NCBI RefSeq assembly: GCF_017348835.2
Contig: NZ_CP071375.1
Strand: one strand, 5' to 3'
Origin: Escherichia coli
GTDB taxonomy: Bacteria; Pseudomonadota; Gammaproteobacteria; Enterobacterales; Enterobacteriaceae
DNA: 64,000 nucleotides
The notes beneath the pieces were generated by a model. The model was not told the origin of the DNA. It did no database searches and was given only the letters and a program-made list of their open reading frames with translations. Positions 3,536 through 52,901 of the stretch are shown here, piece after piece (within the stretch, counting starts at the first letter, position 1; every line of letters starts with the position of its first letter). A program made the translations under genes and the position numbers.

Positions 3536-4420
3536 TCAGTCAGTATCCCTTCGCCCGTAAACCTGCGCCACATACCGCCCGCGCCCGTCGCCGTGGCCCA
3601 AATCCATCGACGTCATCGCCAGCGCTTCCTTCTCACAAAATCCCTGCGCCAGATAATGACGAATGGCATCCTGCGCCCATGCGTAGCGCAACGAGTGCGG
3701 GGAATATGCGCCCGTTAAGCCAAGACGTGACGCCTGACTGTGCCAGTATTTCATCGCGCTTTTCAGATCCGGCTTATCTATCAGTCTGCCGTGACGATCT
3801 TCTGCCACCGCCAGCGCATTATCCAGCGCGTTTCTGACAGCAACAGCATCAATAATAATTGTCTCACGGGGTCGCCCGCCTTTGGTGCCGAACACCACGG
3901 TTAAGCGAGTGTCACCAAGATCCAGCGCCTGCCGCCACGTTTTCAGCGATTGTGCGCTTTGTACCGCCTCCTGCGAACGTAATCCCATCAGCCTTGAGAG
4001 TTCCAGCGTTGCCGCCAGCCCCGGATCTTTTGCGCGGGCGGTTTCCAGCACATGGCGGTAATGCTCCGGCGTGATGGCCCGCTTCGTACCGTTACGGGAT
4101 GCGCCAGACAGGCCCAGCGAGCGGTTATTCAGTCGCTCACTCTGCGCCAGCCTGTCACGCCCGGCCTGTTTCAGAATGCAGCGCACCGCCGCCATCTCAT
4201 TTTGCAGGGAACGCTTCGTGATACCCTGCGCCAGTCGTTCACGAACATATCCCTCAATATACCGCGCCTTAAGCTGCTCCACCCGGCGGATCTGCACATT
4301 CTGTGCCAGAACCAGACGCTCACAAAACCGCTGCACCAGCTTAATACGGTCGTGAACGGTCTTATGGCTGCCGCCCGCCTGCTGTGCCAGTCGCTTCATT
4401 TCCTGCTCCAGAATCCCCAT
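3536..4420 (-). CDS. Short tyrosine site-specific recombinase (phage-integrase family, Xer-like size)
   Basis: 294 aa; catalytic-type residues in RLMGLRSQE (Arg), HSLRYAWAQ (H-x-x-R) and C-terminal GRGRYVAQVYG (Tyr). Confidence 0.7.
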   Translation of the reverse strand: MGILEQEMKRLAQQAGGSHKTVHDRIKLVQRFCERLVLAQNVQIRRVEQLKARYIEGYVRERLAQGITKRSLQNEMAAVRCILKQAGRDRLAQSERLNNRSLGLSGASRNGTKRAITPEHYRHVLETARAKDPGLAATLELSRLMGLRSQEAVQSAQSLKTWRQALDLGDTRLTVVFGTKGGRPRETIIIDAVAVRNALDNALAVAEDRHGRLIDKPDLKSAMKYWHSQASRLGLTGAYSPHSLRYAWAQDAIRHYLAQGFCEKEALAMTSMDLGHGDGRGRYVAQVYGRRDTD

Positions 4421-51454: not shown

Positions 51455-52279
51455 TTACTCCAGCGGCATTACCAGCGGATCGGGATACTGGTATTCAAAC
51501 CCCAGTTCATTACAAATCCGACTGCCATCAATAATCTTACCTTTGCCGCTGTCCAGACTATTTCTGAACTGCGGAGGTTCCAGCCCCAGTAAACGGGCCA
51601 TCTGCGGATAGAAAACATTACGCGCAGGGTGAGCTGGCGCACATATATTATAGATGTGTCCGCCTTTAGGTGCCTGTAACAACAGAGTGATAGCGCCAAT
51701 AACATCTTCTAAATGGACTAAATTAACACCATGTTCACCATCAGGCGCGGTTTTTCCGGCAAAGAAGCGTCCGGGATGACGTCCCGGTCCGACCAGGCCC
51801 GCAAGACGCAGAATATCGACCGAAGTACCGGGTAAATTGTGCAGCCAGTCTTCAAGTTCTTCTAATACTCGTCCACTGTTGGTTACCGGATTACGCGGGG
51901 TAGTTTCTTTCACCGTGCCTTGCGCGTCGCCATAGACAGATGTTGAGCTGGTGAAAATAATGCGGGGAATACGATGGGCCAGCGCGCTATCTACTAACTC
52001 TTGTACCGCTTGTAAATAGAACTCATCGCCGGGGCCGCTACGACGGGCCGGAAGCGTAATGACCAGCGCATCGGCATCCATCAGGGCATCCAGATCGTCA
52101 GAATCGCAAACTAACTCAGGCTCCATGCGAAGCAGATAGCTATCAATGCCACTCATTCGGGCCGCTTCGACACCATCTTGTGTGGTTTTACTCCCGGTGA
52201 CTTGCCAGCCTCGCGCTGAAAGTGACATCGCCAGCGGCATGCCTAACCACCCTAACCCGACAATTGCGACCTTTTTCAT
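51455..52279 (-). CDS. yeeZ: NAD-dependent epimerase/dehydratase-family protein
   Basis: 274 aa with Rossmann motif (VAIVGLGWLG). Confidence 0.85.
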   Translation of the reverse strand: MKKVAIVGLGWLGMPLAMSLSARGWQVTGSKTTQDGVEAARMSGIDSYLLRMEPELVCDSDDLDALMDADALVITLPARRSGPGDEFYLQAVQELVDSALAHRIPRIIFTSSTSVYGDAQGTVKETTPRNPVTNSGRVLEELEDWLHNLPGTSVDILRLAGLVGPGRHPGRFFAGKTAPDGEHGVNLVHLEDVIGAITLLLQAPKGGHIYNICAPAHPARNVFYPQMARLLGLEPPQFRNSLDSGKGKIIDGSRICNELGFEYQYPDPLVMPLE

Positions 52280-52383
52280 CCGTTATCTCCTGATACACCT
52301 TAGATCTATAAGGCTACGCTAGCGTATCAAAACTGACAATTCATTCTATGAATGAAATCGAAACTGTTAGCAAATATACAATT

Positions 52384-52412
52384 GCCTGATGCGCTCCGCT
52401 TATCAGCCCTAC
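52384..52412. repeat. REP-like palindromic element
   Basis: gcctgatgcgctccgcttatcagccctac resembles E. coli REP units. Confidence 0.5.
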
Positions 52413-52637
52413 AAAAACATCAATATATTGAATTTAGGCAACATTTGTAGACCAGATAAGGCATTCACGCCGCATCCGGCAGGAACAAAGCCCACTTTAG
52501 TTACAGAACACAATGTTCTTGAGGGTTTTAAAGACATATTTTCACGATTACTTTTCTAACGTAGTCACTCCAGGCCCCCACCTTTCCCCGCTCATTCATT
52601 AAACAAATCCATTGCCATAAAATATATAAAAAAGCCC

Positions 52638-52667
52638 TTGCTTTCTAACGTGAAAGTGGTTTAGGTT
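52638..52667 (+). promoter_or_regulatory. Probable his operon promoter
   Basis: TTGCTT and TAGGTT hexamers at about 17-18 bp spacing upstream of hisL. Confidence 0.5.
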
Positions 52668-52705
52668 AAAAGACATCAGTTAAATAAACATTCACAGAGA
52701 CGTTT

Positions 52706-52756
52706 ATGACACGCGTTCAATTTAAACACCACCATCATCACCATCATCCTGACTAG
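52706..52756 (+). CDS. hisL: his operon leader peptide
   Basis: MTRVQFKHHHHHHHPD with seven consecutive His codons. Confidence 0.95.
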   Translation: MTRVQFKHHHHHHHPD

Positions 52757-52820
52757 TCTTTCAGGCGATGTGTGCTGGAAGACATTCAGATCTTCCAGTG
52801 GTGCATGAACGCATGAGAAA

Positions 52821-52854
52821 GCCCCCGGAAGATCACCTTCCGGGGGCTTTTTTA
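52821..52854 (+). terminator. his attenuator terminator
   Basis: GC-rich hairpin gcccccggaag...cttccgggggc followed by a T-run. Confidence 0.9.
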
Positions 52855-52901
52855 TTGCGCGGTTGATAACGGTTCAGACAGGTTTAAAGAGGAATAAGAA
52901 A

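What the first reader, a model, noticed from the sequence alone, without database searches (positions are those of the whole stretch)
52280..52705. yefM-yoeB toxin-antitoxin genes missing between yeeZ and hisL; a REP-like element occupies the interval
The yeeZ-hisL intergenic region is only about 420 bp and contains no ORF of 80-90 aa on either strand, but does contain a REP-like palindrome (52384-52412). As I recall, the yefM-yoeB pair sits here in K-12, so its absence is a strain-level presence/absence polymorphism.
Basis: partly seen in the sequence, partly recalled or inferred. Interest (0 to 1): 0.3.

Follow-up and report, generated by a model that had tools for sequence, protein, structure and literature searches.

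The report
Toxin-antitoxin genes absent; repeat element instead
This E. coli strain carries the less common version of the DNA between yeeZ and the histidine operon, in which K-12's yefM-yoeB toxin-antitoxin genes are replaced by a short non-coding repeat (a BIME-1 element); this is an ordinary strain-to-strain difference already published for O157:H7.

Summary
The yeeZ-hisL spacer is 427 bp (52280-52706) and has no ORF above 56 aa and no trace of yefM or yoeB. K-12 does carry yoeB-yefM at this exact spot.

It is not a simple deletion. A 213-bp segment (52357-52569) replaces K-12's ~655-bp cassette, and the two segments share no detectable similarity. The core of the 213 bp is a complete BIME-1 (RIP/RIB-type) repeat:
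- a 34-bp L linker with an IHF-like site;

Among 5,426 complete E. coli genomes, 1,196 (22%) carry this allele and 4,218 (78%) carry the toxin-antitoxin (TA) allele. The two are essentially mutually exclusive. The window is identical to strain PE164, which has no yefM-yoeB-like DNA anywhere else.

Other enterobacterial genera have a 155-188-bp spacer with neither insert. E. albertii and three other non-coli Escherichia lineages have the BIME allele, and E. whittamii has the TA allele. The TA-free allele is therefore old and probably ancestral in the genus, not a recent loss.

Iguchi et al. 2011 already reported the lack of yoeB/yefM in O157:H7 Sakai and REPs in this spacer. Interest is low.

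The parts
51455..52279 (-). yeeZ (SDR-family epimerase/oxidoreductase), left boundary gene
   Evidence: 274-aa ORF. Annotated yeeZ in the identical PE164 record and in K-12.
52280..52356 (.). Left flank shared by both alleles and by other genera: yeeZ 5' region with a promoter-like TTGTCA-N17-TAGCCT on the minus strand and the dyad ATTCATTCTATGAAT (52339-52353)
   Evidence: Identical to K-12 up to 52356. Alignable to Salmonella, Citrobacter, Enterobacter and Klebsiella. The promoter and operator reading is inference from the sequence.
52357..52569 (.). Allele-specific 213-bp segment that takes the place of K-12's ~655-bp yoeB-yefM cassette
   Evidence: Alignment to K-12. No similarity to the K-12-specific segment. 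Present at 80% coverage or more in 1,196 of 5,426 genomes.
52383..52412 (+). y-type REP (palindromic unit) of the BIME-1
   Evidence: Head TGCCTGATGCG matches exactly and tail CTTATCAGCCCTAC has 1 mismatch. Forms an imperfect hairpin of -4.3 kcal/mol. Two mismatches to the y consensus as I recall it.
52413..52446 (.). 34-bp L-type linker, tail-to-tail between the CTAC and GTAG ends of the two REPs. Contains the palindrome TCAATATATTGA (52420-52431) with two overlapping 12/13 matches to the IHF consensus WATCAANNNNTTR.
   Evidence: Same linker core (CAATAnATTGAATT...TTTGTAG) as in the torZ-cmoB BIME-1.
52447..52481 (-). z-type REP of the BIME-1, inverted relative to the y REP
   Evidence: Head TGCCGGATGCG matches exactly and tail CTTATCTGGTCTAC has 2 mismatches. 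Hairpin of -4.9 kcal/mol. E. albertii and L007 carry near-canonical versions at the same place.
52570..52623 (.). Right flank shared by the TA and BIME alleles of Escherichia but absent from other genera
   Evidence: It shows that both alleles descend from one Escherichia-specific ancestral insertion state.
52624..52706 (+). his operon promoter region (A-rich upstream tract, TTGCTT ... TAGGTT) and hisL 5' UTR, intact
   Evidence: Near-identical in K-12 and conserved across genera. The promoter identity rests on established knowledge of hisp1.
52707..52757 (+). hisL leader peptide (MTRVQFKHHHHHHHPD), right boundary gene
52732..52855 (+). His operon leader/attenuator RNA
   Evidence: Rfam RF00514, 131.6 bits against a gathering score of 49.

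Best explanation
The window carries the yefM-yoeB-free allele of the divergent yeeZ / his-operon promoter spacer. K-12 and 78% of E. coli have a ~655-bp cassette here (yoeB, yefM and the yefM promoter/operator, transcribed toward yeeZ). This strain has an unrelated, non-coding 213-bp segment instead. The core of that segment is one BIME-1 (RIP/RIB-class) repeat: a y REP, a 34-bp L linker with an IHF-like site, and an inverted z REP.

Shown:
- The two alleles share the 77-bp left flank and the right flank.
- They are mutually exclusive across 5,426 genomes.
- The strain (identical to PE164) has no yefM-yoeB-like DNA elsewhere, so it simply lacks the YoeB mRNA interferase and its antitoxin.
- The his promoter, hisL and the attenuator are untouched.

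Inferred:
- The BIME allele is the older state in the genus Escherichia. The TA cassette replaced the 213-bp core before the E. whittamii / E. coli split.
- Strains now exchange the two alleles by homologous recombination through the conserved flanks, in a region next to the O-antigen recombination hotspot.
- The BIME itself probably does no more than bind IHF and form hairpins. It may act as a neutral or mildly structural spacer between the two divergent promoters.
- yeeZ keeps its own conserved promoter but loses any read-through from the yefM promoter.
For: Gene identities. Breakpoints and lack of homology between the allele cores. Survey: the spacer matches 5,416 of 5,426 genomes. The 213-bp core is in 1,196 genomes. 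The K-12 core is in 4,218 genomes, with at most 2 places per genome and none on plasmids. Since 1,196 + 4,218 = 5,414, the two alleles are essentially exclusive and exhaustive. The window is 100.0% identical to PE164 over 24 kb. In a blastn search with a tagged query, PE164 and F2_81 matched only the tag and not yefM-yoeB. BIME-1 anatomy. The same architecture sits at torZ-cmoB at 82% identity. There are 40 or more places per genome, and 5,425 genomes have a copy covering 80% or more of the element. The family definition comes from Ton-Hoang et al. 2012, PMC3333891. Polarity: 75 non-Escherichia loci have 155-188-bp spacers with neither insert. E. albertii, Escherichia sp. E1V33, sp. MOD1-EC7003 and the divergent 'E. 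coli' E69 have the BIME allele, and E. whittamii has the TA allele. The BIME core diverges in step with its flanks: window against E. albertii is 89.7% in the core, 91.8% in yeeZ and 86.3% in yeeY. The same O-antigen tag is found with either allele. Prior report for O157:H7 Sakai: Iguchi et al. 2011, PMC3158064.
Against: Polarity rests on five non-coli Escherichia species representatives. E. fergusonii, E. marmotae and E. ruysiae type genomes were not among the returned loci, so parsimony is weak. The TA allele is also old: K-12 against E. whittamii is 96.6% in the core and 93.2% in yeeZ. No junction signature (target duplication or REP remnant in the TA allele) reveals how the replacement happened. 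IHF binding is inferred only from two 12/13 consensus matches, and about 0.8 such matches are expected by chance in 427 bp. Both REPs are slightly degenerate with weak hairpins. One genome, HH97, has a hybrid-looking allele that would argue for loss by decay if it is natural.
Confidence: 0.85

Rival explanations
1. Secondary loss. An ancestral yefM-yoeB cassette at this site decayed and was deleted, and a BIME-1 colonised the scar. On this reading the window's 213 bp is a degraded TA site, and 52484-52569 would be a relic of the yefM promoter region.
For: Strain HH97 has a 649-bp spacer that aligns significantly both to K-12 yoeB/yefM (z = 15, about 73-77% identity) and to the window's allele-specific segment (z = 41 on the left, z = 14 on the right). 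Decay of chromosomal TA loci is documented for ccdO157 (Mine et al. 2009, listed in PMC7167474).
Against: Directly, the K-12 and window cores show no similarity (z about 1). HH97 is unique among 5,426 genomes, and two of its diagnostic 25-26-mers are absent from the metagenome collection. Its length (649) is almost exactly the mean of the two alleles (647). Against K-12 it shows almost only deletions (two 1-nt insertions). Its substitutions are spread evenly over codon positions (19/19/16). Only 6 of 224 bases match neither parent where both align. It contains two overlapping traces of the window's linker and z REP. This pattern fits a chimeric consensus of two alleles better than a natural intermediate. 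The BIME allele is present in E. albertii with divergence matching its flanks.
Confidence: 0.1
2. Recent strain-specific deletion or an assembly collapse in this particular genome.
For: None beyond the shorter spacer.
Against: The same 427-bp spacer occurs at 80% coverage or more in about 1,190 other complete genomes, including O157:H7, and in four other Escherichia species-level lineages. The replacing 213 bp is not a subset of the K-12 sequence.
Confidence: 0.01
3. Both alleles are independent insertions into a naive short spacer like that of Salmonella or Citrobacter. Neither would be derived from the other.
For: Other genera have a 155-188-bp spacer lacking both inserts, and both inserts begin at the same left breakpoint.
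Against: The two Escherichia alleles share about 54 bp (52570-52623) that other genera lack. Two independent insertions would not both bring this sequence. No Escherichia genome with the naive short spacer was seen: 5,416 of 5,426 E. coli genomes carry one allele or the other.
Confidence: 0.04

Closest known systems
yeeZ-hisL region of E. coli O157:H7 Sakai as described by Iguchi et al. 2011 (PLoS One 6:e23250, PMC3158064)
   Same: That paper states that Sakai lacks the two small genes corresponding to K-12 yoeB and yefM between yeeZ and hisL, and that REP sequences lie in the yeeZ-hisL spacer. O157:H7 genomes carry the same 213-bp core at 96.7% identity.
   Different: The window comes from a different lineage (PE164-like, pig isolate), and its allele is 3.3% diverged from the O157:H7 one. 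The species-wide frequency, the BIME-1 classification and the comparison with other genera were worked out here and are not taken from that paper.
BIME-1 / RIP / RIB elements of E. coli (Bachellier, Gilson, Hofnung; Boccard & Prentki 1993; Oppenheim et al. 1993; summarised in Ton-Hoang et al. 2012, PMC3333891)
   Same: One y REP and one z REP in inverse orientation, tail-to-tail, separated by a long (34-bp) conserved L linker carrying an IHF-like site. It is a single copy, not a tandem array. It is 82% identical to the torZ-cmoB copy.
   Different: It lies between two divergent promoters, not at the 3' end of a transcription unit where most REPs sit (established knowledge). Both REPs carry stem-weakening substitutions (GGCC to GCCC, CCGGCC to CTGGTC). 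IHF binding was not tested.
Chromosomal TA presence/absence polymorphisms in E. coli, e.g. ccdO157 in the folA-apaH spacer (Mine et al. 2009) and the uneven distribution of type II TA systems among phylogroups (Fiedoruk et al. 2015; Ramisetty & Santhosh 2016), all cited in PMC7167474
   Same: A small type II TA cassette (promoter/operator plus two ORFs, no terminator) sits in a core-genome intergenic spacer in some strains. In other strains a short unrelated sequence occupies the same spot.
   Different: Here the alternative allele is a recognisable repeat element, and it appears to predate the TA allele in the genus. No decayed TA copies were found among 5,426 genomes apart from the doubtful HH97 record.

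Membership tests
BIME-1 (RIP/RIB) repeat | Two REPs (palindromic units with a conserved GTAG/CTAC end) in inverse orientation | tested here: met
   REPs at 52383-52412 (+) and 52447-52481 (-). CTAC and GTAG flank the linker. Both fold as imperfect hairpins.
BIME-1 (RIP/RIB) repeat | Composed of one y and one z1 REP (definition in PMC3333891) | tested here: inconclusive
   One REP has the y head (GCCTGATGCG) and the short y body. The other has the z head (GCCGGATGCGGCG...). They show 2 and 3 mismatches to the y and z1 consensus sequences as I recall them. The z1 versus z2 assignment rests on memory, and no reference consensus was available in the tools.
BIME-1 (RIP/RIB) repeat | Long, conserved L linker between the REPs, frequently with an IHF site | tested here: met
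   The linker is 34 bp. Its core CAATAtATTGAATT...TTTGTAG is shared with the 35-bp torZ-cmoB linker. It has two overlapping 12/13 matches to WATCAANNNNTTR. Actual IHF binding is not testable with these tools.
BIME-1 (RIP/RIB) repeat | Occurs as a single element, not a tandem array, and belongs to a multi-copy family in the genome | tested here: met
   There is a single y-L-z unit in the spacer.
yefM-yoeB type II toxin-antitoxin locus | Two adjacent small ORFs encoding a YefM/Phd antitoxin (83 aa) and a YoeB toxin (84 aa) | tested here: not met
   No ORF above 56 aa lies in the spacer. tblastn with both K-12 proteins against the window gave a best E of 1.3. The identical PE164 chromosome has no match to the K-12 cassette by blastn, and no plasmid in the collection has one either.
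yefM-yoeB type II toxin-antitoxin locus | yefM operator (TGTACA-N6-TGTACA palindromes) upstream of the pair | tested here: not met
   The K-12 operator sequence TTGTACAGTTCATTGTACAATG is absent from the window. The K-12 core against window 52483-52569 gives z = 1.1.
His operon leader / attenuator (Rfam RF00514) | Leader peptide with a run of His codons followed by the attenuator structure | tested here: met
   hisL encodes 7 consecutive His. RF00514 scores 131.6 bits over the full-length model.

The most novel reading that the evidence does not exclude
The yeeZ-hisL spacer may be a two-allele polymorphism older than E. coli itself. On this reading the BIME-1 allele is ancestral to the genus, and the yefM-yoeB cassette replaced exactly its 213-bp core before the E. 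whittamii / E. coli split. Both alleles have since persisted, now at about 4:1. The bias toward the TA allele could arise because replacement is asymmetric. A recombinant that swaps the TA allele for the BIME allele loses the labile YefM antitoxin and is poisoned by the remaining YoeB, whereas the reverse swap is harmless. The cassette would then behave as a slow recombinational drive in a recombination hotspot.
Probability: 0.25. Interest if true: 0.4.

Novelty: already known. Interest (0 to 1): 0.12.

Why it matters
In practice it matters little. It tells an annotator that this strain lacks the YoeB/YefM module, one of the ten K-12 mRNase TA systems used in persistence studies. It also shows that the his promoter and attenuator are intact, and that the palindromes in the spacer are an ordinary BIME-1, not a novel element. 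The locus is a clean, well-sampled example of a chromosomal TA cassette and a repeat element as alternative alleles of one core-genome spacer (22% against 78% of 5,426 genomes). That makes it a convenient place to test whether chromosomal TA systems resist allelic replacement.

Tried and rejected
1. HH97 as an evolutionary intermediate. One genome (NZ_CP116409.1) has a 649-bp spacer resembling both alleles. I first read it as evidence that the window's 52484-52569 is a yefM-promoter relic. I rejected it as evidence for these reasons:
- It is unique among 5,426 genomes.
- Two of its diagnostic k-mers are absent from metagenome contigs.
- Its length is the mean of the two alleles.
- It shows almost only deletions against K-12 (two 1-nt insertions).
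- Its substitutions carry no codon-position bias.
- Almost every base matches one or the other parent.
- It contains duplicated traces of the BIME's right half.
The most likely reading is a chimeric consensus of two alleles.

2. A fixed-gap REP pattern found nothing because the y REP has a shorter loop. I replaced it with half-site searches.

3. I fetched five more megablast hits hoping for other BIME-1 loci to build a consensus. All were the same torZ-cmoB locus, so no family consensus was built.

4. The K-12 RefSeq table shown by the tool lists no REP or RIP repeat features, so annotation could not confirm the class.

Phylogroup statements from those papers could not be checked.

6. The promoter/terminator scan reported only weak promoter-like hits inside the BIME and no terminator. 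I gave these no weight.

Full report
**What is at the coordinates**

The window holds yeeZ on the minus strand (51455-52279) and hisL on the plus strand (52707-52757). Next come the His leader/attenuator (Rfam RF00514, 131.6 bits, 52732-52855) and hisG. The spacer is therefore 52280-52706, 427 bp, and it is a divergent promoter region. No ORF inside it exceeds 56 aa. tblastn with K-12 YefM and YoeB against the whole window found nothing (best E = 1.3). A word-7 blastn with the K-12 cassette found only chance matches.

**The recollection about K-12**

NC_000913.3 annotates yeeZ (b2016), yoeB (b4539), yefM (b2017) and hisL (b2018) in that order. The yeeZ-hisL interval there is 867 bp.

**Nature of the difference**

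Aligning the two intervals shows identical sequence for the 77 bp next to yeeZ (to 52356). From about 52570 onward to hisL the two sequences are near-identical. Between these flanks the window has 213 bp (52357-52569) and K-12 has about 655 bp: yoeB, yefM, the yefM operator/promoter and about 130 bp more. The two cores are unrelated. Local alignment scores sit at shuffle level (z about 1). This is a replacement of one segment by another, not a clean deletion.

**What the 213 bp contains**

A second, z-type REP lies inverted at 52447-52481. The two are joined tail-to-tail (CTAC ... GTAG) by a 34-bp linker.

- The linker carries the palindrome TCAATATATTGA and two overlapping 12/13 matches to the IHF consensus WATCAANNNNTTR.
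- Each REP folds as an imperfect hairpin.
- This is the anatomy given for BIME-1 in Ton-Hoang et al. 2012 (PMC3333891): y plus z1 REPs, single copy, long conserved L linker that often holds an IHF site.
- The torZ-cmoB spacer holds an element of the same build, 82% identical, with the same linker core.
- These are the only complete REPs in the 64-kb window.
- The z1 versus z2 call rests on my memory of the consensus sequences and is marked inconclusive.

**Survey across E. coli**

| Query | Genomes matched (of 5,426) |
|---|---|
| Whole spacer | 5,416 |
| 213-bp core, 80% coverage or more | 1,196 (22%) |
| K-12 core | 4,218 (78%) |

The K-12 core is found at most twice per genome and never on a plasmid. 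The two counts sum to 5,414, so the alleles are essentially exclusive and exhaustive. Rare variants include a TA allele with IS421 inserted between yefM and hisL. O157:H7 genomes carry the BIME allele at 96.7% identity to the window.

**This genome**

Window 40001-64000 is 100.0% identical over all 24 kb to strain PE164 (pig, Nanjing) and nearly so to F2_81. The next best genome is at 97.8%. I built a query joining the K-12 yoeB-yefM coding region to a 614-bp tag from PE164's O-antigen cluster. In blastn mode it matched PE164 and F2_81 at one place only, the tag. Other strains with the same tag matched at two places, and no plasmid in the collection matched. The strain therefore has no K-12-like yefM-yoeB anywhere. 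The same result shows that the spacer allele is uncoupled from the O-antigen cluster 11 kb away. That fits the recombination hotspot around rfb (established knowledge).

**Other genera and species**

A scan of species-representative genomes with YeeZ returned 80 loci.

- In 75 non-Escherichia loci (Salmonella, Citrobacter, Enterobacter, Klebsiella, Kluyvera and others) the yeeZ-hisL spacer is 155-188 bp. It aligns to the window's left flank plus the his promoter, with neither insert.
- Within Escherichia, E. albertii, sp. E1V33, sp. MOD1-EC7003 and the divergent 'E. coli' E69 have the BIME allele (424-426 bp).
- E. whittamii has the TA allele (866 bp).
- Both Escherichia alleles share about 54 bp (52570-52623) that other genera lack. 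They therefore derive from one Escherichia-specific ancestral state and not from two independent insertions.
- The BIME core diverges in step with its flanks. Window against E. albertii gives 89.7% in the core, 91.8% in yeeZ and 86.3% in yeeY.
- The TA core does the same. K-12 against E. whittamii gives 96.6% in the core and 93.2% in yeeZ.

Both alleles are therefore old and mostly vertically inherited. By parsimony the BIME allele is the older one, because E. albertii is basal (established knowledge of the genus phylogeny). The sampling is thin, however: E. fergusonii, E. marmotae and E. ruysiae were not returned. I put about 0.65 on this polarity.

**A misleading lead**

Strain HH97 has a 649-bp spacer with no annotated gene.

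- It aligns significantly to K-12 yoeB/yefM and also to the window's allele-specific segment on both sides of the BIME. Taken at face value it would make the BIME allele a decayed TA site.
- It is unique among 5,426 genomes, and two of its diagnostic k-mers are absent from the metagenome collection.
- Its length is within 2 bp of the mean of the two alleles.
- Relative to K-12 it has almost only deletions (two 1-nt insertions).
- Its differences from K-12 yefM are spread evenly over codon positions (19/19/16).
- Where both alleles align, only 6 of 224 bases match neither.
- It contains two overlapping traces of the BIME's right half.

I read it as a chimeric consensus of two alleles, from a mixed culture or a polishing artefact, and I do not use it as evidence. 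This remains unproven without the reads.

**How it works**

- Shown: the strain lacks the YoeB ribosome-dependent mRNA interferase and its YefM antitoxin.
- Shown: the his promoter, leader peptide and attenuator are intact.
- Shown: the conserved 77 bp next to yeeZ is retained. It holds a promoter-like TTGTCA-N17-TAGCCT and a T-N11-A dyad, both conserved across genera.
- Inferred: yeeZ is expressed from its own promoter, without the read-through from the yefM promoter suggested for K-12 ('likely cotranscribed', PMC5120126).
- Inferred: the BIME-1 binds IHF and acts at most as a structural spacer between the divergent promoters.
- Inferred: alleles move between strains by homologous recombination in the flanks.

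**Comparison with the literature**

Iguchi et al. [quoted passage not shown] They also report REP sequences in the yeeZ-hisL spacer and note that indels there involve REPs. Reviews note that no K-12 TA system is conserved across phylogroups (PMC7167474).

The finding is therefore already known in kind and at this locus.

**Verdict**

Novelty is 'already known' and interest is low (0.12). The most novel reading not excluded is a trans-specific polymorphism whose bias toward the TA allele comes from toxin-mediated resistance to allelic replacement (probability about 0.25, interest about 0.4).

Noticed in passing
L084:2276-2924 (E. coli HH97, NZ_CP116409.1): A 649-bp yeeZ-hisL spacer that is a fine-scale blend of the TA and BIME alleles. 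Its length is close to the mean of the two, it shows almost only deletions against K-12, and it is unique among 5,426 genomes. It is probably a chimeric assembly consensus. If natural, it would be an intermediate between the alleles.
   Followed up: yes
L085:1830-2942 (E. coli CUPF12, NZ_CP182159.1): An IS421 (IS4-like) element is inserted between yefM and hisL in a TA-type allele, pushing the TA cassette about 1.3 kb away from the his promoter.
   Followed up: no
L090:1-364 (E. coli MS6192, NZ_CP054940.1): An IS621 (IS110 family) element sits inside the torZ-cmoB BIME-1, leaving only the z-REP half next to cmoB. This is an example of a REP-targeting insertion sequence.
   Followed up: no
window 52339-52353 and 52318-52346 (minus strand): The dyad ATTCATTCTATGAAT (T-N11-A type) lies next to a TTGTCA-N17-TAGCCT promoter-like site reading into yeeZ. 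Both are conserved in Salmonella, Citrobacter and Enterobacter. This may be an operator for the adjacent LysR-type regulator YeeY.
   Followed up: no
L001 about 3846-3866 (K-12, right junction of the TA cassette): A perfect palindrome CTAAGAGGAC-A-GTCCTCTTAG straddles the right junction. Only its right arm lies in sequence shared with the BIME allele. It might be a trace of how the cassette was integrated.
   Followed up: partly
window 40001-64000; L002:23814-24427: This 24-kb sbcB-his-gnd stretch is 100% identical to only two genomes, PE164 and F2_81 (both from pigs). The next best genome is at 97.8%, so this is a rare haplotype. The adjacent O-antigen genes (WbuC-family and GT4) are 100% identical in strains that carry the other spacer allele, showing recombination between the his operon and the O-antigen cluster.
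   Followed up: partly
L003 (CP089930.1, 'E. coli' E69): This record is labelled E. coli, but its yeeZ and yeeY are only about 94% identical to the window and K-12, which are 98-99% identical to each other. It is probably a cryptic-clade Escherichia and not E. coli sensu stricto.
   Followed up: no
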